Positions 17,166 to 60,718 of a stretch of DNA of 64,000 bases are shown here, in pieces (within the stretch, counting starts at the first letter, position 1; each line of letters opens with the position of its first letter). Below the pieces are notes generated by a model that saw nothing but the letters and a program-made list of their open reading frames with translations, did no database searches and was not told the DNA's origin. Position numbers and translations under genes: made by a program. This DNA is from Octopus vulgaris. Lineage: Eukaryota. The DNA lies in contig OX597817.1 of the NCBI GenBank assembly GCA_951406725.2, positions 72,726,001-72,790,000 of the forward strand, given 5' to 3'.

Positions 17166-17289
17166 CCTCCTTCTTTCCTGAGCATCCAATAATACTATAT
17201 TTGTTCCACGTCCTCGCATTGTTGTGTTTTTTTGTGCTTTCTTGTTTGGATTAACGTTATATATATATATATTCTTATACAATATTGTT

Positions 17290-44949: not shown

Positions 44950-45835
44950 AACTTAGATATGTTTCGACCAAAGATTGGTCCAGGCCATGTCTAACTTAAT
45001 AGCACCACCTGATAGGATTATCTAAATCCTGTTTAAGTCAAGTTCTGTTTATGGTCCATTCAAGGAGTGAGTTGTATCCAGGTATGGGTGGCTTATCCGG
45101 TATTCCTTGAAGAAATCTGTCCAAACTCCGTTTAAAGATGATGGGATTCTTTTCCTCTTTGATCTCTTTCGGGACAATGTTAAATAGAGCAGGACCTGTT
45201 GAGGAAAAGAAATTATGTTGCAGTGTACCTATATGCTGTGATCCTGAATTGGGCAGGAGACGTATGGCTCGTGGTCCCAGCCTTTGATGAACCTTGAAAC
45301 TAATGTTCACGTCATTTGGGCAAAGTTGGCGGTATATTGTCCACATCGTACAAATGATGAACCGCTCGTGGCAGCGCTGGAGAGTGTAGAGTTTCAAGGC
45401 TTTAAGGCAGTCCCAATAATCGAGAGCAGTCATGCCTTCAATTCGTTTAGTGGGTGCCCTCTAGGGTGATTCAATCCTCGAGATGTTTTGTCTTGTATGG
45501 GGAGACCACAATGGGCAGCAGTATTCGAGGTGTGACCGTACAAAGGAGGAGAAAAGTGATATGGTGACACCTTGTTCTCTGGACCGGAAGGTTCTTAAGA
45601 TCCAGGAGCTCATCCTATGAGCTAGATCAACCTTATTTTTGAGGTGGGCACTCCAACTGAGATTGTCATCAACAATTACGCCTAGGTCTCTGATATTGTT
45701 AGAGGCTGTGAATGGTTCCCCTAAAGGAAGAGAGTATGGCTGTTTTAGTGTGAACTTTCTTCCAAAATGCATCAGCTCAAATATTCCCTCGTTTAGTTGC
45801 CTTTTGTTTTTGTCTGCCCATTGACTTAGCATATA
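44950..45835 (-). mobile_element. 5'-truncated CR1-group LINE (ORF2 C-terminus and 3' UTR)
   Basis: IRDLGVIVDDNLSWSAH, FVRSHLEYCCPLWSPH, LKALKLYTLQR and FKRSLDRFL. In-frame stop at ~45461. Confidence 0.88.
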
Positions 45836-46891
45836 GATCATTCATTCATACATACATACATACATACATACATACATACATACATACATACATGCACACA
45901 CACACACACACACACACATACATAGATACATACATACATACATACATATATGGTGGTTGTCTAGTCCTTATGTAGTGTCTGACCACCCCCTGTACCTACA
46001 CCTTAGCACCTTCATGGCGTCTGATGTGGCTTTTTAAACCAGACAATGTTTTGAAAAGATACACACATAGATTGCATATCCAATTTAGACCACTAAGTGC
46101 TGCAATTAAGTTCTGATCATTGTGGATCTTAAAATCTCATTTGAGGCCTTTGTTAGGTTTGCAGACCTTATGGCATACATGATACTGAAATGTGTGCACA
46201 GACATATAGGCAGAATAGTTGGTTGAGGTTCGTTTTCCATGAGTCTGCAAATGAGATTTGAGCCCAGCGAAAGAAAGGCATGATCTGTAACAAACTGTAC
46301 ACACATATCATCATCATCATCATTGTTTAACATCCACCTTCCCTGCTAGCATGTGTGGAAGGGTTTCACAAGAGCTGGCCAGGCAGAAGCCTGCCCAGAC
46401 TTCTGTGACTGTTTTGGCAGGATTTTTAGAGATGGATGCCCTTCCTAACACTGACCACTCAGAAGAGTGGACTATATATAATGAATTTATAATAAAGAAG
46501 AATAGCAATTTATATCCGGTGGTGGCTATATGGAGCAAGGCCAGATTGAAAACAGTTAAGTGTTTGGTGGAGTGGTTGGTATAGCAAAAGTCACTTTTTT
46601 GGAGGTGGATATTCACAGATGTTCAGAAAATCTGTCAATACATATATATATATAATAATACTATATTTGTTCCACGTCCTCGCATTGTTGTGTTTTCATG
46701 TTTGGATTAACTTTATATATATATAGAATGGTTGTATACTGTCAATCTAACAAGAACGTGACAGTAGGGGGTACACCACTGCTGTATAGCCCTAGGAAGC
46801 ATCGAACGCCTCCTGATAGCTTTGACACATTTTTTCCCTGTGTCCTTATATACATGTACGAAGGGGAGACAAACACCCCCGGCTGCCAGAA

Positions 46892-46949
46892 CTGCATCTA
46901 GGGACACCGTGTTTCAGGATCATTGCCCTTCATCGGCCTAGAGTAGCAG
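46892..46949 (-). ncRNA. Type I hammerhead ribozyme (CCGAUGA core variant), same strand as the ORFs
   Basis: Minus strand ctgctactctagg CCGATGA aggg-caatga-tcct GAA aca-cgg-tgt C cctagatgcag. Confidence 0.75.
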
Positions 46950-47240
46950 ACACCGGTCAGCTGGTGATATTATATCTTTATTATGGGCACGATGGCCCTA
47001 ATTCAGAGGGGACATTACAAGACGGGACGTGGGGTACATGAAGTAAAAATAAAATATGAAATAAAGATGAATTATATATAATGAGATGGAACGGCTTACG
47101 AACCCCCAACTCGCAGTTCCGTTTAAAATACAATTGTACATTTTACAATTACATATATTCCAGTTCAAAATACAATTTTACATTTTACAATTTTACAATT
47201 AACAATTTTACATTTTAACATTACATATATTCCAGTTCTT

Positions 47241-48602
47241 TTATATTGGACGTTCGTCCGTCATATATTCTATTAAGTCCATTTGGTCTATTACATTTGG
47301 TAAATTGTCATACCGTACATACTGCGTTATATAAATAGCATTAAATATCTTTTTCAATTTTGTGAATGTTTCTTTTTCTATAACTGCGCCTTTTACATCG
47401 TCACCATACAGTTTTGGGTTCAACTTCACCCTGACCAATCCTTTCCTACCTGCAAGTCTCTTTTCCACTTCTGTATCCTTGATATACATCACAAATGGTT
47501 TCAGGTTTTTCCCTGCAGGTCTTCTTCCCCTCTTACACGCCTCCAACTACTCTTTCACTCTTGTCTCCTATTCTTGGTCAAACTCTGTCCTTGTCTGCTC
47601 TCTCGCTTCTCTTTTACTTCCTTTTCTTTGCACGTTCTTTCTTCTTTTTCTTCTGTTATCTTGCTTTTGATTCTTTTCTTTTTAGAACTTTCGGTGGTGA
47701 TTCCACCCTTGTTCTCTTCCTATCTTCTGTTCTTTCCTCCTCTGCACTTGCTCGTTCTTCTTCCATATCCTCATTTAGCTGCTCCTCCGTTTGTGCCTCC
47801 ACTGCTTTCGCTTCCTCCTGCACTTCTCCCTCCTCCACACACGCATCTTTACACTCCTCTATTACAGCCTCCGGTGCCTTCGTTTTCTCCAGCGGGCACA
47901 CATCCTTCATGTGGCCCCTCAATTTACAATGATAGGAGACTGGGGGTCTTCCCTCTACCACGACTCTAAGCCGTGTCTCATCAGGGAAGACCAACTCCTC
48001 CGGGATGTTGTACAGGTCTCGCACGGTTATATGTGCCAGAACCTGCACCGCATATCCCCACCACTTTACCTCTGTTGACTTCTCCACCTTCAACACCTCC
48101 ACACTATCCTTGCAGTTGAAGACTACTGCCGCTAATAACCTCTCCATATTAAATTCGGGCGAAATTCTACTAATTCTTATCCTCACTGCCCTCCTTCCGC
48201 AGTAACTTGGTAGTAAAGTCCACCTTTCCGTTTTCAAAATTCTTGTTGCATTCTTTCTTGCTTCATTTTCAGTTTTAAAATATACCACCACTGTGGCATA
48301 TTTCCTTCCTCTTTGAAAAATGTGGGTTCACCCTCAATTTCCTTCAGACACTTTTCTACTTCTTCCGTTTCTGCTACTTCTATTTTTTTCGACGCCACAC
48401 ACCATGTCCTGTACGTTATCATTCGCTTCTCCGCGTTGTTTTCTTCTTCCTCGGACGGTGTGACTCTCACGCAGTCACCCTCCCTCTTCAAACTGTCGAA
48501 ATACTTTTCTAGAGTCTTCCTCTCAACCACCACTTCTTCCATTTCCAGTTCACTGGCAACCAGGCCTCTGCCTGCTGCTCTCGCATAAGTCTGGTCTTGC
48601 AT
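47241..48602 (-). pseudogene. Disrupted second copy of the CCHC zinc-knuckle ORF1-like gene
   Basis: Colinear with 49049-50404. 1-nt deletions near 48312 and ~47680, a TAG near 47548, and the first knuckle Cys changed to Ser (SYHC). Confidence 0.85.
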
Positions 48603-49048
48603 TTTCAAAAATCTCCAAAAAAAATTTTTTCACGTCCTCCAGCAACGAACTCGAACTCACAACCTCTTCACAATGACGCACTCGAAACAAACACACCAGA
48701 ATAATGACTCCAAAAAAAAAATAGGTCGGCTGGTGATATTATATCTTTATTATGGGCACGATGGCCCGAATGAAGACGGGACATTACAAGACGGGACGTG
48801 GGGTACATAAAGTAAAAATAAAATATGAAATAAAGATGAATTATATGTAATGAGATGGAACGGCTTACGAACCATCAACTCGCAGTTCCGTTTAAAATAC
48901 AATTTTACATTTTATACTTTTACAATTTACAATTTTACATTTTAACATTACATATATTCCAGTTCAAAATACAATTTTACATTTTAACATTACATATATT
49001 CCAGTTCAAAATACAATTTTACATTTTACAATTTACAATGTTACAATT

Positions 49049-50404
49049 TTAAAATCTCAGTTCTATTGGACGTTGGTCCGTAATGTACTTTGTCAACACC
49101 ATTTGATCCACCACATTTGGCAAATTCTCATAACATACGTAATACGTTGAATAAACCTGCTCAAACATACTTTTCAATTTACAAAATGTTCCTTTATCTA
49201 CAAGTACCCCTTTCATATCGTCATCATGGAGTTCTGGGTGTAATTTAACCCTAATTAATCCCTTCCTACCTGCAAGTCTTTTTTCCACTTCTGTGTCTTT
49301 CACATATAACATCAATACTTTCAGGTATTTTCCTTCAGGTCTTTTTCCTTTTTTACATGCATCCAACTGTTCTCTCACTTTTTTGCTCCATTCTAAGTGT
49401 ACCTCTGTCATTGTCTGTTCGTCCTTTTCTTTGCACCTTCTCTCTTTTTCTTCTGTTATCTTGCTTTTGGTTTTTTTCTTCTTTAGAACTTTCGGTGGTG
49501 ATTCCACCCTTGTTCTCTTCCTATCTCCTGTTCTTTCCTCCTCTGCACTTGCATGTTCTTCTTCCATATCCTCGTTTAGCTGCTCCTCCGTTTGTGCCTC
49601 CACTGCTTTTGTTTCTTCCTGCACTTCTCCCTCCTCCACACACGTATCTTTACTCTCCTTCGTTACCGCCTCCGGTGCTATGGTTTTCTTCAGCGGGCAC
49701 ACATCCTTCATGTGGCCTCTTAATTTACAATGATAGCAGACTGGGGGTCTTCCCTCTACCACGACTCTAAGCCGTGTCTCATCAGGGAAGACCAACTCCT
49801 CCGGGATGTTGTACAGGTCTCGCACGGTTATATGTGCCAGAACCTGCACCGCATATCCCCACCACTTAACCTCTGTTGACTTCTCCACCTTCAACACCTC
49901 CACACTTTCCTTGCAGTTAAAAACTACTGCCGCTAATAACCTCTCCATATTAAATTCGGGCGCAATTCTACCAATTCTTATCCTCACTGCCCTCCTTCCG
50001 CAGTAACTTGGTAGTAAAGTCCAACTTTCCGTTTTCAAAATTCTTGTTGCATTCTTTTTTGCTTCGTTCTCATTTTCAAAATGTACCACCACTGTGGCAT
50101 ATTTCCTTCCTCTGTTGAAAAATGTGGGTTCTCCCTCAATTCCTTTCAGGCATTCTTCTATTTCTTCTGTCTCTGCTACTTCTATTTTTTTCGACGCCAC
50201 ACACCATGTCCTGTACGTTATCATACGCTTCTCCGCGCTGCTTTCCTCTTCTTCGGACGGTGTGACTCTCACGCAGTCACCCTCCCTCTTCAAACTGTCG
50301 AAATACTTTTGTAAAGTCTTCTGTTCGACCACCACTTCCTCCATTTCCAGTTCACTGGCAACCAGGCCTCTGCCTGCTGCTCTCGCATAAGTCTGCTCTT
50401 GCAT
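49049..50404 (-). CDS. Intact 451-aa L1/Tx1-type ORF1-like nucleic-acid-binding protein with CCHC zinc knuckle
   Basis: ATG at 50404 (the ORF track starts two codons earlier at TTG). TYARAA N-terminal motif, IPEELVF...RVVVEGRPPVCYHCKLRGHMKDVC (CX2CX4HX4C), acidic/basic linker and an uncharacterised ~105-aa C-terminal domain. No RT or endonuclease ORF follows. Confidence 0.8.
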   Translation of the reverse strand: MQEQTYARAAGRGLVASELEMEEVVVEQKTLQKYFDSLKREGDCVRVTPSEEEESSAEKRMITYRTWCVASKKIEVAETEEIEECLKGIEGEPTFFNRGRKYATVVVHFENENEAKKNATRILKTESWTLLPSYCGRRAVRIRIGRIAPEFNMERLLAAVVFNCKESVEVLKVEKSTEVKWWGYAVQVLAHITVRDLYNIPEELVFPDETRLRVVVEGRPPVCYHCKLRGHMKDVCPLKKTIAPEAVTKESKDTCVEEGEVQEETKAVEAQTEEQLNEDMEEEHASAEEERTGDRKRTRVESPPKVLKKKKTKSKITEEKERRCKEKDEQTMTEVHLEWSKKVREQLDACKKGKRPEGKYLKVLMLYVKDTEVEKRLAGRKGLIRVKLHPELHDDDMKGVLVDKGTFCKLKSMFEQVYSTYYVCYENLPNVVDQMVLTKYITDQRPIELRF

Positions 50405-50870
50405 TTTCAAAAATCTCCAAAAAAAAAATTTTCCACGTCCTCCAGCAACGAACTCGAACTCACAACCTCTTCACAATGACGGACTCGAAACAAACACACC
50501 AGAATAACCAAAAAAAAAGGAGGCTGGTGATATTTGCCTCGACTTCGTAATTGTATATACCTATATTCAGTGAAGTTTATTCACTGATTATCAAAATAAG
50601 AAATATTGAATTTCTAAATCTCTCGTAGAGACATGTACGGTGGTGGGGCGATAGAATGGTTGTATACTGTCAATCTAACAAGAACGTGACAGTAGGGGGT
50701 ACACCACCGCTGTATAACCCTAGGAAGCATCGAACGCCTCCTGATAGCTTTGACACATTTTTTCCCTGTGTCCTTATATACATATACGAAGGGGAGACAA
50801 ACACCCCCTTCACTGAATATAGGTATATACAATTACGAAGTCGAGGCAAATATCACCGGCTGACCGGTGT

Positions 50871-50928
50871 CTGCTACTCTAGGCCGATGAAGGACAACGA
50901 TCCTGAAACACGGTGTCCCTAGATGCAG
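50871..50928 (+). ncRNA. Type I hammerhead ribozyme (CCGAUGA core variant)
   Basis: Stem I tctagg/cctaga extended by ctgc/gcag, stem II agga/tcct, stem III aca/tgt. Predicted cleavage after GUC at 50917. Confidence 0.78.
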
Positions 50929-53664
50929 TTCCGGCAGCCGGGGGTGTTTGTCTCCCCTTCGTATATGTATATAAGGACACAGGGAAAAAATGTGTCAAAG
51001 CTATCAGGAGGGTTTGATGCTTCCTGGGCTATACAGTGGTGGTGTACCCCTACTGTCACGTTCTTGTTAGATTGACAGTATACAACCATTCTATCGCCCA
51101 CCACTGTACATGTCTCTACGAGAGATTTAGAAATTCAATATTTCTATATATATATATATATATATGACAAGTTTCTTTCAGTTTCCATTTACCAAATCAC
51201 CTCACATGGCTTTCATTTCTCCAGAGCTATAGTACAAAACACTTGTCCAAGCTGGCAAGACTATATGGTTGGGAAGCAAGTTGTGAGGCTAAAATTTAGG
51301 GCAAGTGTTGGAACATTACCTAGTTTCATTGTGGTGATATGGGTTATGTAAGCAAGATCTATATTTCTATTTATTTTTACTATTCAGTATTCTTTAAGAA
51401 AGAAAAAAAAGATGCTATACAATTTATGTGAGTACTAAAGTACTATGTAGCTTTTGTGTTCTTTTATTGTCAGATCTTTACCACAAGCTGACACATACAC
51501 CAATACATCATATAATAAACATAGTTCACAACCTATTAAAGATGTATGCAGTTAGGTTATTGGGCTCACAATCTTTAGGTCATAGGTTCTATTTTCAGAC
51601 TGGTGGCATATAGTGTCCTTGAGCAAGGTATTTCATTTCACATTGCACCAGTCCACTCAGCTGAAAATGAGTACCAATAGCAGGTAGCAGTTGTATATTA
51701 ATTTTGCATCAGACTGGTGAAGTCTTATACAGGGAGGAGCCATATATTCTCAATTTCCTAAATAACTTGGAAACACAGATTAGCCCTGACTTCATAAATC
51801 TGTTAGCTCAAGGTAGAATTTTGGTACACAATCTGAAAACAGGGTATATATACTTTGGTAATGTCAGGGTTAATAATGGTGATGGATGACAAAATCAGTA
51901 GAATAGCTGACAACATTCCTCACAGTATTCATATAGTTTTATATGTAACTTTTTAGATTACTCAGAAGGTTGAATAGGTGCAGCAGCCTTCTAAGACTGA
52001 TAATTGATTTTGCTGATACCAACCCAGCCTGCTCATCAATAGGAAAATGTGGGTGGAGAGTTTTGTCCAAATATTTGCAAGAACTTAGCAAAAGGCAACT
52101 AGGGATCAAACAGTAGGGCTAAACACCAGTTTTTTTACTTCTTTTTTTTTTTCTTGATTTAATCAAAAAAGGAAGGGTGTTATCTGTGATACTTTTCAGA
52201 GCCACTAAGAGTAGTTGGAGGAAATCAATCTCAAACTGAAGACCTGGCCTGCATTATTCTTGCAGCAGAGTGAACTCAGCTAAGTGTCGGAGGGCAATAG
52301 TAAATAGGGAAAACTGATAAGTTTACCATCCAGAAACTACGAATGGTCCCTCCTGTAGACTTCCATCCAGTTTCCATCTACCAAACTCCATGCATTAAAA
52401 ATGGTTGAAGACACTTGCTCAAGATATCATGCAGAGGAATTGAATCCAAAACCATATAATTTCAAAGAAGAATTATTAATAAGACCATACCTATGTCAAT
52501 TTTAATCTTACAGCTCTGAGTTCAACTCACATTGTAGTTGAATTTGCCTTACTTTCCTTTTTTCTTTTTTTTAATCAATGTAATTAGTACTAGATACTTA
52601 ATTAGGTTGATTTTCCCACAAAATCACATTATCTTACAACAATGTTAAAAACCAATCTATGAGCAGTCAAGATTAAAAGATATAAAGCAACATCAGGTTA
52701 CCAAAGTTTAACTCTTTGTTTTCACTTGTGACACTTTCCAAGGAATGAGAGAAAGACAATGTGAGAATTGTTAACAATTTGGACAAGAGACAAGAAAAAG
52801 TGTGTGAGAGAGAGAGATATTAGCTTAGTCTAGAACTGAAGCTGTATCACAAACTCAGCTTTCTAGGAGCTTACCACTATATGACAGCAGGAATAAGCTC
52901 TTAGATATTAGTACATTGAAATTACAATCTCACAATCACCAAGCACATGCTCTCTCTCTCTCTTTCGCGATTTTAATCCTGATATCACAGCTGCACTAAG
53001 TATGCTTTTCTTTGCAGAATTAATCCTTTTGCTGTATTACATAATTTATGCCACATGCTCATTGTTAAATTACCAACCACCAGCTGAGGATAACCAAATA
53101 AATATAACCCAACAAAAGAGATGCTATACAGTCACTCAGTTTGTTAGAAATGACAACCAAAATCTTCTTCAATCCATACTCTCCAATACCTTACGAAAAG
53201 GACACATTGCAAAATGTAGTCTTAGATACACCATGCCTAAAAATGATGGGGTGATAACAGTGGCTGGAATGTCTGTTTTATCAAAGTTGACCTGGGGTTA
53301 AACAACAACAATCAATGTTTGTTTTACCTCAACTATGATCATTATTAAAAGTGATTTATTTATCAGGGCAACCTATTTTTTGAGTAAGGTTGTTCCAACT
53401 AGAACAAGCAACAAACCTCTGAGTATCATTAATACAACCATCTGAAAACAGTACAAAATCATCATGCTCCAAAACTTCTTGACACACCTAGAATTCTACT
53501 AATGTTGTATAAGGACATTGAAACAGACCGCCTTATGTCTACAAGCCGATTTCAATTCAGTGCACCATCCTTCTTCATTTGGGATGAATCCAACATAGAG
53601 TTGATAGCTATCTATCAATAAAGTATAATGATATTGAAATACTCGAGATTGTGAATCTTTTCTA

Positions 53665-54957: not shown

Positions 54958-57600
54958 TACTCTTGGGTCCCAAAATAATAGCCAGGGCTGGAAAAAGCAG
55001 GTGGGTGGGACATTTGCTTAAATTCATATAAACGGGTGGGCTGGAATAAACAGGGGCGGGGTGGAAAATCTGTAATTGTGTAGCGGTAGCTATATAAAAT
55101 CTTAAAATGTTCTAGTTTCTCTCCCTTGATTTTTTTTTTAAACCAAATAATAGGGGGTGTTGCAATAAGCGGGTGGGCTGGATATTTATTTAAATTCATA
55201 TAAGTGGGTTGCAGTAAACGGGGGTGGGTGGGAATCAGTAACTGTATAGTGTAAGTGCAAAAATTAGGAAAAAGGATCTTACAGCACATATGACAACACG
55301 AGGTAAAAGAAATGAACAAGAGGGAAGTGAAATTAGCACATACGTATGCATCACTTTAGTTAAGATATACATTTGGATAATAAAAATAAGACATTTGTTA
55401 ATTATGGTAATGATGGGATTCTTTCTAAATGCTGTGGACTAAACAGATATTGATGCAAGCAACACATCTTAGAAAGAAATGTAAAACACAATGCAAAGAG
55501 TATAATTACTGTTTTGTGAACTTGCAGTATTTATCAAACTTTAGATAATAAAACATAGCACTCCTTAAATAGGTATAAATGATAAACTCATGATTTTTCA
55601 TCACTGTCCTTCTGCAGGTTTCTTGTTTCAATATTCACATCTTTATGGATCACTGACAGTTGACATGAGTATTTTTTCAAGGAACAGGGCATCTTTATTA
55701 ACTTGATCATCACTGCTGATTCCTACAAGAGAGATAGAGCATCCCCTCATCATGTTTGGCCGACTGTGCTTTGGCTCCTGTGAAACCTCCATGAGGATTT
55801 CTCCAGATGGGTCAATCACCTCCAAAAGATTCCCAGGTGGCTTGCTTTCATCTTCTCACTCACTTTTGGCAGCTTTTTCAAACTCTCACATTGATGAACC
55901 AATGAGGTGCATGATTCATTCTGACACCTTATAATCTTCAGAGCCGTCAAAAGCATTTGTGGCCTACATCGACTTGAAAGCAGCTTCGACATCAATCTTG
56001 CAATCTTCATGTGCTTGATGTAGCATCTGCATCATCTCAGATTGATTGGGTATTTTATTCAGAGTTTGAATTATTTTTCTAGCATCTTTGCTTTCTCTAT
56101 TTCACAATATTTTGCTTTCAGTTGTTTGTGCAAGTGTATGCCATTAACTTGAACAAATCCAGTGATACTACCTCTGATGATGACTAACACATAACCCCTT
56201 TTCCAGCAGGTGTCTCTCACCTTTGGCATCAAATGTACCATGAAATCATCAAGCACATAAATGGCAAAGTTTGCATGTGAAAACATATTGAATCGGTTTG
56301 GAAAGTTTCCAACAGTACAAAGCAGCTGTTTTAATTTATAAGCACCTTTAGGAGACTGCTGATATTTCTTTGAAGGTGAGGCATTCCGTAGTGATGGTCT
56401 TTTTCCAGTTCCTTTAAATACAAACTCTGGAATAAGATTGATTTTGGTATCATTGCTAACCTGGGTGGACATTGTGATAAGTTCTTTAGACAAATAGTGG
56501 TTTTCTTCGACGAATGTATCTTGATTTCTGAATGATAAGGTAGGTTGTCCACTACTTTCATTCCGGTGCAAGGGCATTTGATCTCCATTGATAATAGAAG
56601 GATCCACACCAATTTTGTCAAGGAAATAACGACACACACTCCATATCTTCTGCGGGATGACGTCAGCAGCTGGGGAGCTGGCCAGAACTTGGGGCTGACT
56701 GGAAGAGGAAGGAGCAGGAGTGACGCGCACACAGGCAGGGCAGCATTGGGCCTTTTCGATCGAGGTAGCCGAGCAAGTCAGATGTGTGAGCTCATTGTTA
56801 AGGTAGGGGAAAAGCAGCTGCTATTTCTAGTGTTCGGGGCAGGCCGCGTGGAAGGGTGCATTACCACTGAAGAGGTCTCTGTCAACGAAAAGAAGGTAGG
56901 TGTTCTTATTTCAAATCTCCCGCATACACCACATCTTCTTCAAATAATCCTGAATGCGCTCAACACATTGCTCTTTGAGGATTGATATGGGTTTGTTTAC
57001 AAATTTACAATAGGACAAAATTTATATTATTTACTCTCAACTGAAGCAAGGTTCTATAACCCCATACTCTTTTTGTCAACCTTTCATCCAGCTTTTTGAA
57101 AAACAAAGCTTTTCCTCAGTTGGTGTGTCTGGGTGTTGGCAAATCCACTCCTCATGAAATTTCTCAGCCTGTAATAGAAAAAGAGCTTGTGATAATCTCA
57201 CATGTAGCGATGTTCTAACATCCACAAACCATTCAAACAAGGCATCTCTCATACCTGGTGCTTTTGTTTTACTACCTCCTCCAGCAACTCTAAAATGTTT
57301 CTTTGGATTTTTTTCAACACTGTCGAGTTTGCCTTTCAGATATTTTTCAGAGCAGCATTTAGCTACATTAACAGCAGAATCAAATAGTCAATCAGAGTTT
57401 TTGACACCAGCCAAATTTGAGTAAACCAAACGAACTGCTTTGGTGAGATATCGCTGTTTTGGGGTGCCAAGGACATGGCATTTCCTTTTAGTATCCCAAT
57501 GAGTTTTCCCTTTCATTTGCTCTAATTTAGAATCATACCTGTATCTTATATGTTTTTTCATACAGAATTCAAAAATAATGTCAAATTATCTGTACTAAGT
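54958..57600 (-). mobile_element. Decayed DDE DNA transposon (pogo-like) with G-rich subterminal repeats
   Basis: IINGDQMPLHRNE, YVLDDFMVHL and GSITGFVQVNGIHLHKQLKAKY resemble pogo DDE motifs. Upstream LFEWFVDVRT fits an HTH region. aa(a/g)cgggtggg-type repeats at 54995-55235. Confidence 0.7.
56651..56924. mobile_element. 274-bp GC-rich insertion with TGCGGGA...TCCCGCA termini (solo-LTR or MITE-like)
   Basis: It interrupts the transposase between ...DYLKKMW and KIWSVCRYF. Flanks contain ccatatcttc and ccacatcttc. Confidence 0.6.
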
Positions 57601-57814
57601 TCACATATTCCATTCACCTTTATAATACCAAGAAATTGTATAAACATCACAACTTTTGCTATACATGAAAAATATGTAAAATATTAAGACAATTGGTGAA
57701 AAATATCTATAATAAAATTCTAATTGATAAACATAAATTTTTATTAAAACAAAACACGCGAGGAAGTGGAAGAAAGGGTGGAAGATGAGGAATGGGAGGA
57801 GGAGGAAGGGGAAG

Positions 57815-58113
57815 GGGTGAGTGGGACTTCCTGGAAAATTCAGAGGAAGGGTGAGTGGGAATTCCTGGGAAATTTCAAGGAGGGGGAGAAGGACTTCCTG
57901 GAAAAGTCTGATGTTGGGGAGTATTTCTTTGAAAATTCCAAGGAGGGTGAGTGTGACTTCCTGGAAGATTTTCAAGGAGGGGGTGAAGGACTTCCTGGAA
58001 AAGTACGAAGGTGAGGGTGAGTGGGACTTCCTGGGAAAGTCCGTGGAGGGGTAAGTACTTCCTGGAAAATTCCGAGGAGGAGAACGGGAGGAAGGACTTT
58101 TTGGAAAATTCCA
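57815..58113. repeat. ~33-bp-period minisatellite, about nine units, core ggACTTCCTGGAAAa
   Basis: The core recurs at roughly 33-nt spacing with purine-rich linkers. Confidence 0.85.
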
Positions 58114-60672: not shown

Positions 60673-60718
60673 AACACAACGTTTCGGCTGATATACCCTC
60701 CAGCCTTCTTCAGGTGTC
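60673..60718 (-). ncRNA. Minimal type I hammerhead ribozyme, intact core
   Basis: Minus strand gacac CTGAAGA a ggctg-gagggtatat-cagcc GAAAC GTT gtgtt. Confidence 0.75.

What the first reader, a model, noticed from the sequence alone, without database searches (positions are those of the whole stretch)
46955..50534. The same ~16-nt motif marks all three cassette junctions (TSD-like, repeated targeting)
ggtcagctggtgatatt (46955-46971), ggtcggctggtgatatt (48724-48740) and ggaggctggtgatatt (50519-50534) bracket the two cassettes. The empty site has a single copy (reverse complement, 50849-50865). This is the pattern expected from two successive insertions at one site. The cassettes also differ at their 5' junctions and C-termini, which argues against a simple recent tandem duplication.
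Basis: partly seen in the sequence, partly recalled or inferred. Interest (0 to 1): 0.75.

Follow-up and report, generated by a model that had tools for sequence, protein, structure and literature searches.

The report
Half-LINE pair inside a ribozyme repeat
Two related mobile elements that carry only the RNA-packaging gene of a LINE retrotransposon sit back to back at one spot inside another, ribozyme-bearing mobile repeat: a known habit of site-choosing retrotransposons, but with a target that seems not to have been described.

Summary
The motif is real. It bounds both 1.75-1.78 kb cassettes, and the empty host copy has it once (4 matches, 0.42 expected). Read on the minus strand, both 3' junctions are identical (AATAAA, 5 nt, then the motif, no poly(A)); the upstream copies are 17 and 13 bp plus extra bases, as expected of target-primed insertion. 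Each cassette encodes only a type I LINE ORF1-like protein (two RRM folds, one CCHC knuckle, an extra C-terminal domain), with no RT or endonuclease. A and B differ by 10.7% under purifying selection (omega 0.46), while host copies differ by 1.9-3.3%, so local duplication is rejected. A is decayed and B intact, so A probably came first. The host is a 361-bp non-coding repeat with a hammerhead-type motif, laid out like a Penelope-like insertion (partial tandem, inverted 5' copy, (TA)n ends). Best reading: an ORF1-only, Tx1-type non-autonomous retroelement inserted twice at one site in a Penelope/retrozyme-like repeat. Tx1 targeting of other transposons, TSD-sandwiched tandems and ORF1-only elements are each known; this target and combination were not found in my searches. 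One locus only; family-wide targeting is untested.

The parts
46714..46725 (.). (TA)n run at the left end of the whole insertion; overlaps the host end by a few bases
46723..46954 (-). Host repeat, part downstream of the insertion site; its last 158 bp (46723-46880) repeat 50651-50808 (partial tandem, pLTR-like)
   Evidence: 3 substitutions in 158 bp
46897..46942 (-). Type I hammerhead-type motif: 6-bp stem I, 4-bp stem II, short near-palindromic stem III; core has U4 to C and an A-U pair at 10.1/11.1. Predicted cleavage after 46903, 69 nt downstream of the 3' junction of A
   Evidence: activity not tested
46955..46971 (-). Motif copy 1: target copy downstream of cassette A (17 bp)
46972..48723 (-). 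Cassette A, 1752 bp. ORF1 remnant 47241-48602 with three frameshifts, two in-frame stops and loss of the first knuckle Cys; AATAAA at 46977-46982; T10 run at 48712-48721
48724..48740 (-). Motif copy 2: between the cassettes (17 bp)
48741..50518 (-). Cassette B, 1778 bp; AATAAA at 48746-48751, AT-rich 15/42-nt repeats in the 3' UTR, T9 run at 50510-50518; no terminal repeats
49049..50404 (-). Intact 451-aa ORF: RRM fold (aa 48-137), second RRM/ferredoxin-like fold (138-219), one CCHC knuckle (224-237), acidic linker and helix, C-terminal alpha/beta domain (about 360-437)
50519..50534 (-). Motif copy 3: upstream of cassette B; 13 bp match (50522-50534) plus 3 extra bases
50535..50808 (-). Host repeat, part upstream of the insertion site; holds a hairpin near 50563-50591 and is 5'-truncated at the inversion point 50808
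50808..51145 (+). Inverted 338-bp host copy; its 3' end runs 52 nt beyond that of the direct copy
50849..50865 (+). Empty site: single motif copy
50878..50923 (+). Second copy of the hammerhead-type motif, in the inverted host copy
51145..51165 (.). (TA)n run at the right end of the whole insertion

Best explanation
A non-autonomous Penelope-like (retrozyme-like) repeat of 361 bp first inserted into a (TA)n run as 1.4 direct units plus an inverted copy. An ORF1-only derivative of a sequence-specific L1/Tx1-type LINE then inserted into the direct copy by target-primed reverse transcription, borrowing endonuclease and RT from an autonomous partner elsewhere: the first nick at a fixed position gave the exact 3' junction, the second nick 17 bp away gave the duplication. 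The site survived upstream of the first cassette and was hit again by a second subfamily, with a 13-bp duplication. The order was probably A, then B. Shown: motif layout, empty site, junction asymmetry, ORF anatomy, absence of RT/endonuclease, divergence, host architecture. Inferred: the mechanism, the partner, the Tx1 clade, the order, and that the family prefers this site genome-wide.
For: Fixed 3' junction and variable 5' junction on the ORF strand. All three filled motifs share a base the empty site lacks, as if copied from one allele. Two tandem RRM folds (Foldseek E 3e-5 to IMP3 RRM1-2; Z 9.3, rmsd 2.6, 83 aligned to La RRM) plus a CCHC knuckle fit type I ORF1p, the type tied to Tx1 in non-mammalian animals (PMC5203782, passages). 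Atlas leads are CCHC and ZCCHC3-like eukaryotic clusters at 0.79-0.84, leads only. 384 homologues at E <= 0.001 show a large family. Omega 0.46, p 1e-4, 441 codons. Six disabling lesions in A, none in B (two-sided p 0.03). The neighbouring inverted host copy is empty though 96.7-98.1% identical at aligned positions. Precedent: Tx1 families target other transposons, and tandem SINEU-3 copies sandwich a TSD, read there as sequential insertion (PMC4494074 sections 14-15).
Against: One locus only. No RT, so the clade cannot be assigned, and no partner LINE was seen in the window (the ORF1 profile hit only A and B). No poly(A) tail, and an unexplained T9-10 run at both 5' ends. Both upstream motif copies share a C at position 13 that both host-side copies lack; CpG decay or A-first order explains it, but so does a motif carried in the element's own 5' end. 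The age difference is weak on substitutions alone (3 vs 0, p 0.25), and 1-nt deletions may be assembly errors. Query B itself has no Pfam hit above cut-off (knuckle E 0.73).
Confidence: 0.65

Rival explanations
1. Cargo: the two insertions happened in an earlier master copy, and host plus B plus A were copied here as one 3.9-kb unit by a Penelope-like RT. The motifs are then inherited duplications and this locus is no evidence of insertion here.
For: The cassettes lie between two 158-bp direct repeats and in the same sense as the hammerhead, like the body of a Penelope-like element. PLEs can retrotranspose other sequences in trans (PMC8557442, passage). A looks at least as decayed as the host copies are divergent.
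Against: The inverted copy of the same insertion spans the site and is empty, so two different templates would be needed. It still requires two earlier insertions at one site.
Confidence: 0.15
2. One event: the element RNA carries target sequence at its ends (read-through), and the RT jumped from one template to a second, so the pair arrived together and the middle motif is part of an RNA end, not a duplication.
For: No poly(A) and identical 3' junctions suit priming through RNA-DNA homology; both upstream copies share C13.
Against: A is decayed and B intact. The upstream copies differ in length (17 vs 13 bp). The shared position-10 base points to copying from this allele.
Confidence: 0.12
3. 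Local tandem duplication of one cassette, for example by unequal exchange between its two flanking motifs, followed by divergence in place.
For: It gives the same three-motif layout; nt 601-750 of the cassettes are 98.7% identical.
Against: 10.7% divergence against 1.9-3.3% among host copies, 19-29% in the C-terminal region, omega well below 1, and different 5' junctions.
Confidence: 0.04
4. The motif is a recombinase core shared by element and target, as in tyrosine-recombinase retroelements with a gag-like ORF (recalled family trait), so every junction regenerates it.
For: One core at every junction and at the empty site; CCHC gag-like ORF; no poly(A).
Against: Core length varies and extra bases flank it; no terminal or split repeats in cassette B; the two-RRM plus single-knuckle layout is that of LINE ORF1.
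Confidence: 0.03

Closest known systems
Tx1-clade target-specific LINEs and their SINEs (Tx1L in Tx1D piggyBac; Tx1-Mar and SINEU-3 in Mariner-N4_AMi; PMC4494074)
   Same: Insertion at a fixed site in another transposon; tandem copies sandwiching a duplication of similar size (the one quoted for SINEU-3 is 16 bp); type I ORF1.
   Different: No ORF2 here; the target is a hammerhead-bearing Penelope/retrozyme-like repeat, not among the targets listed in the sections read (piggyBac, Mariner, Harbinger, LTR elements, U2, U5, 5S, satellites, microsatellites); extra C-terminal domain.
HAL1 (half-L1; described in PMC5753468, citing Bao and Jurka 2010, which I did not read)
   Same: Non-autonomous LINE derivative encoding only ORF1p.
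   Different: HAL1 comes from mammalian L1, whose ORF1p is type II (Transposase_22); this ORF is type I, apparently site-choosing, and lacks a poly(A) tail.
Penelope-like element pLTRs and non-LTR retrozymes (PMC4209133, PMC8557442, PMC7229834, bioRxiv 10.64898/2026.07.22.740005) - for the host
   Same: Type I hammerhead with a short palindromic helix III; unit of 361 bp; partial tandem plus adjacent inverted 5'-truncated copy; (TA)n ends; one end longer than the other.
   Different: No RT-GIY-YIG ORF; only one hammerhead per strand here; two departures from the core consensus; extension of 52 nt rather than 30-40.
Terminons (PMC6431247, passages)
   Same: Accessory ORFs in the same unit as a 3' hammerhead.
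   Different: Telomeric, tens of kb, RT-encoding; here the ORF cassettes have their own target-site duplications.

Membership tests
Tx1 clade LINE | RT domain groups with Tx1 in a phylogeny | not testable with these tools
   No RT in either cassette; the source genome was not available to find a partner.
Tx1 clade LINE | ORF2 with APE endonuclease and RT | tested here: not met
   Cassettes are 1752 and 1778 bp, and the 451-aa ORF ends about 310 nt before the 3' junction. So not an autonomous member.
Tx1 clade LINE | Type I ORF1p: RRM(s) plus CCHC knuckle | tested here: met
   Tandem RRM folds; knuckle at aa 224-237, Pfam zf-CCHC in 21 of 74 aligned members but below cut-off in B itself. Type I is not exclusive to Tx1.
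Tx1 clade LINE | Target preference (more than 20% of copies flanked by one sequence, criterion of PMC4494074) | tested here: inconclusive
   2 of 2 copies in the window, both at one locus, so not independent.
Non-LTR retroelement (TPRT product) | Target-site duplication of variable length with a precise 3' junction; no terminal repeats | tested here: met
   17 and 13 bp; no terminal repeats in B.
Non-LTR retroelement (TPRT product) | 3' poly(A) or simple-repeat tail | tested here: not met
   AATAAA, 5 nt, then the motif; at most 2 A that are also target bases.
HAL1 | Encodes ORF1p only, under selection | tested here: met
   Single ORF; omega 0.46, p 1e-4.
HAL1 | Derived from mammalian L1 (type II ORF1p, Transposase_22) | tested here: not met
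   Architecture is type I with a CCHC knuckle; no Transposase_22 among the 21 Pfam families hit by 74 members. Works like HAL1, is not HAL1.
Penelope-like element (host) | Type I hammerhead with minimal, palindromic helix III | tested here: met
   Descriptor allowing U or C at position 4 finds both host copies, 0 hits in 100 shuffles; self-duplex -10.7 kcal/mol. Rfam found nothing, the fold is not the minimum-energy one (-6.5 vs -11.9), and cleavage is untested.
Penelope-like element (host) | Partial tandem plus adjacent inverted 5'-truncated copy; microsatellite target | tested here: met
   compared with PMC8557442 passages.
Penelope-like element (host) | 30-40 bp tail at one end | tested here: inconclusive
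   One end is 52 nt longer.
Penelope-like element (host) | RT plus GIY-YIG ORF | tested here: not met
   None within 46723-51145; at most a non-autonomous derivative.
Non-LTR retrozyme (host) | Two or more consecutive tandem units each with a complete hammerhead; circular RNA | tested here: not met
   1.4 direct units with one hammerhead, criterion from the bioRxiv methods. Other loci and RNA were not testable.

The most novel reading that the evidence does not exclude
A hyperparasite tuned to a ribozyme: the ORF1-only element chooses a site 69 nt upstream of the host's hammerhead cleavage point so that read-through RNA gets a defined 3' end bearing target homology (hence no poly(A) and exact junctions), and once inside it can also ride the Penelope machinery. 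It would then use two unrelated reverse transcriptases, with a new C-terminal ORF1 domain exchanged between subfamilies as a possible specificity module.
Probability: 0.15. Interest if true: 0.72.

Novelty: new variant of a known kind. Interest (0 to 1): 0.42.

Why it matters
It would add Penelope/retrozyme-like repeats to the targets of sequence-specific LINEs and show an ORF1-only, HAL1-like lifestyle in a site-choosing, type I ORF1 lineage of an invertebrate. It gives a short, testable recognition site for an uncharacterised LINE endonuclease, and a natural case for asking whether a target's ribozyme can replace polyadenylation. If the census fails, it is an ordinary nested insertion.

Tried and rejected
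Word-indexed protein searches: nothing for B, 1 of 8000 candidates with a 19-sequence profile, itself an input, nothing among longer proteins; weak negatives, so fused ORF1-ORF2 relatives are neither shown nor excluded. Pfam on 29 of the 150 listed homologues showed no APE or RT domain. Names and organisms of the homologues could not be obtained. Prokaryotic genome collection: 85 pattern matches, none confirmed, for the protein; 0 matches for the hammerhead, as expected for animal DNA. Rfam on 46000-52000: no match at E <= 5. PDB by sequence: only knuckle-level and low-complexity hits. C-terminal domain: no Atlas hit, no Foldseek hit at E <= 0.001, best Z 5.4, generic ferredoxin-like arrangement; no family assigned, which is not evidence of a new fold. 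A tree of 24 core domains left B unresolved. Plus-strand reading (A-run as poly(A) tail) rejected: it puts the variable junction at the priming end and the ORF antisense. Nei-Gojobori omega 0.39 ignores transition bias, and fourfold sites differed at only 14 of 134, so I refitted with a codon model: 0.46. Literature: searches listed no paper that, in what I read, describes a LINE targeting a pLTR or retrozyme, or an ORF1-only Tx1 element; Repbase, Dfam and subscription papers are not covered. The supplement of PMC13282606 was listed but not read, and its repeat library is on Zenodo, out of reach; it could already hold this family.

Full report
Observation. The three motifs and the single reverse-complement copy are at the stated coordinates. 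The 12-mer core occurs 4 times in the window at up to one mismatch, against 0.42 expected; no shuffle of 100 reached 4. The empty copy reads straight through from the sequence outside one end of the cassette pair to that outside the other.

Junctions. The ORFs lie on the minus strand. On that strand both cassettes end identically: AATAAA, five bases, then the motif, with no poly(A). Upstream, A has a 17-bp copy, two extra bases and ten T; B has a 13-bp copy, three extra bases and nine T. A fixed 3' junction with a variable 5' junction is what target-primed reverse transcription with a precise first nick gives (established knowledge). All three filled copies share a base at position 10 that the empty site lacks. 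At position 13 the two upstream copies agree against the two host-side copies; this fits A first and B second, or CpG decay (most host differences fall at CpG sites), or a motif carried by the element. Cassette B has no terminal repeats.

The cassettes. A is 1752 bp and B 1778 bp; BLAST identity is 85.7% with gaps, and 184 of 1724 aligned columns differ. B has an intact 451-aa ORF; A has three frameshifts, two stops and has lost the first knuckle cysteine. Six lesions against none gives p 0.03, but only p 0.25 for substitutions alone. A codon model on 441 codons (gapped codons and three where A reads stop left out) gives omega 0.46, p 1e-4. Divergence is uneven, 1-9% in the first 1050 nt and 19-29% in the C-terminal region; 0 of 300 permutations matched this, though domain-specific constraint can contribute. 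Host copies differ by 1.9-3.3%. A and B therefore diverged as coding elements before this locus formed, which rejects local duplication.

The protein. HMMER found 384 relatives at E <= 0.001 among 1.84 billion representatives. A model from a 74-sequence alignment (mean pLDDT 77) shows two tandem RRM-type folds: Foldseek E 3e-5 to IMP3 RRM1-2; Z 9.3, rmsd 2.6 over 83 residues to La, and Z 7.9 for residues 138-220. A CCHC knuckle follows; 21 of 74 members hit zf-CCHC, B only weakly. That is type I ORF1p, linked to Tx1 in non-mammalian animals (PMC5203782, passages). Atlas neighbours are eukaryotic CCHC and ZCCHC3-like clusters, several mostly molluscan, all under 0.9. A C-terminal alpha/beta domain is shared with 7 of the 150 listed homologues and has only generic fold matches. 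There is no room for ORF2.

The host. Removing the cassettes leaves a 361-bp unit present as 1.4 direct copies (46723-50808) and an inverted 338-bp copy (50808-51145), with (TA)n at both outer ends and one end 52 nt longer. Partial tandems, an adjacent inverted 5'-truncated copy, a one-sided tail and microsatellite targets are described for Penelope-like elements (PMC8557442, passages); a purified Penelope protein cuts AT-rich DNA on both strands and starts at two RNA sites (PMC11167929, parts 1-2 of 4). A hammerhead descriptor, written after seeing the motif and allowing C at position 4, finds both host copies and one unrelated site, and nothing in 100 shuffles. Helix III is short and near-palindromic, as in pLTR ribozymes that work as dimers (PMC4209133, parts 1-2 of 4). 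Against activity: U4 is C, the 10.1/11.1 pair is A-U, the fold is not the lowest in energy, Rfam has no match, and only one copy lies on each strand. Animal retrozymes are reported as non-autonomous Penelope derivatives (bioRxiv 10.64898/2026.07.22.740005, part 1 of 5), with 300-400 nt monomers in mussel (PMC7229834, passages). The predicted cut lies 69 nt downstream of A, in the same sense.

Mechanism. Most likely (0.65) the host inserted first; an ORF1-only element, mobilised in trans by a sequence-specific LINE, inserted at the motif; a second subfamily hit the surviving site. The empty inverted copy argues for insertion in place. Rivals: the whole unit copied as Penelope cargo (0.15), one event with a template jump and RNA-borne motif (0.12), local duplication (0.04), recombinase core (0.03).

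Comparison and novelty. Tx1 families insert into piggyBac, Mariner, Harbinger and LTR elements, and tandem SINEU-3 copies sandwich a duplication, read as sequential insertion (PMC4494074, passages and sections 14-15). ORF1-only HAL1 is known from mammalian L1 (PMC5753468, passages). The element works like a HAL1 with Tx1-like targeting; it is not HAL1, and Tx1 membership could not be tested without an RT. A Penelope or retrozyme target was not found in nine searches, which do not cover Repbase. The flanking repeats look like octopus repeats (recalled, no call); Octopus vulgaris has 13 recently active L1-Tx1 and 31 Penelope-like families (PMC13282606, part 1 of 3), so both helpers are plausible if that guess is right. 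PMC6431247, PMC9004415 and PMC3747384 were seen as passages only.

Verdict. Real feature, new variant of known kinds, interest 0.42. It is limited by resting on one locus. Unexplained: the 5' T runs, the missing poly(A), the mosaic divergence and the C-terminal domain.

Noticed in passing
window 60673-60718 (-): A second, unrelated type I hammerhead-type motif with a longer stem II, found by the same descriptor; probably a remnant of another Penelope-like family.
   Followed up: partly
window 48712-48721 and 50510-50518: T9-10 run at the 5' end of both cassettes on the ORF strand, just inside the upstream motif; unexplained.
   Followed up: partly
window 50563-50591: Hairpin in the host repeat (z -3.8 for 50555-50600), about 30-55 nt upstream of the insertion site; the inverted copy begins at the matching position.
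   Followed up: partly
window 48893-49055 and about 47122-47238: AT-rich 15- and 42-nt tandem repeats in the 3' UTRs differ in copy number between A and B, while the last 150 nt differ at only 8 positions: a likely partner-recognition signal.
   Followed up: partly
window 45038-45841 (-): Two ORF pieces that look like the C-terminal part of a LINE ORF2 (recalled resemblance; no Pfam hit).
   Followed up: no
window 56071-56730 (-): 219-aa ORF whose end resembles a pogo-type transposase remnant (recalled resemblance; no Pfam hit).
   Followed up: no
window 57810-58080: 34-bp minisatellite, about 8 copies.
   Followed up: no
proteins P0031, P0053, P0071: Homologous ORF1 segments embedded in WD40, RGS and LDL-receptor gene models, probably intronic copies spliced in by gene prediction.
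   Followed up: no
window 46654-46725: The left flank matches 17188-17269 at 85%, so the host landed at the TA-rich end of another dispersed repeat.
   Followed up: no
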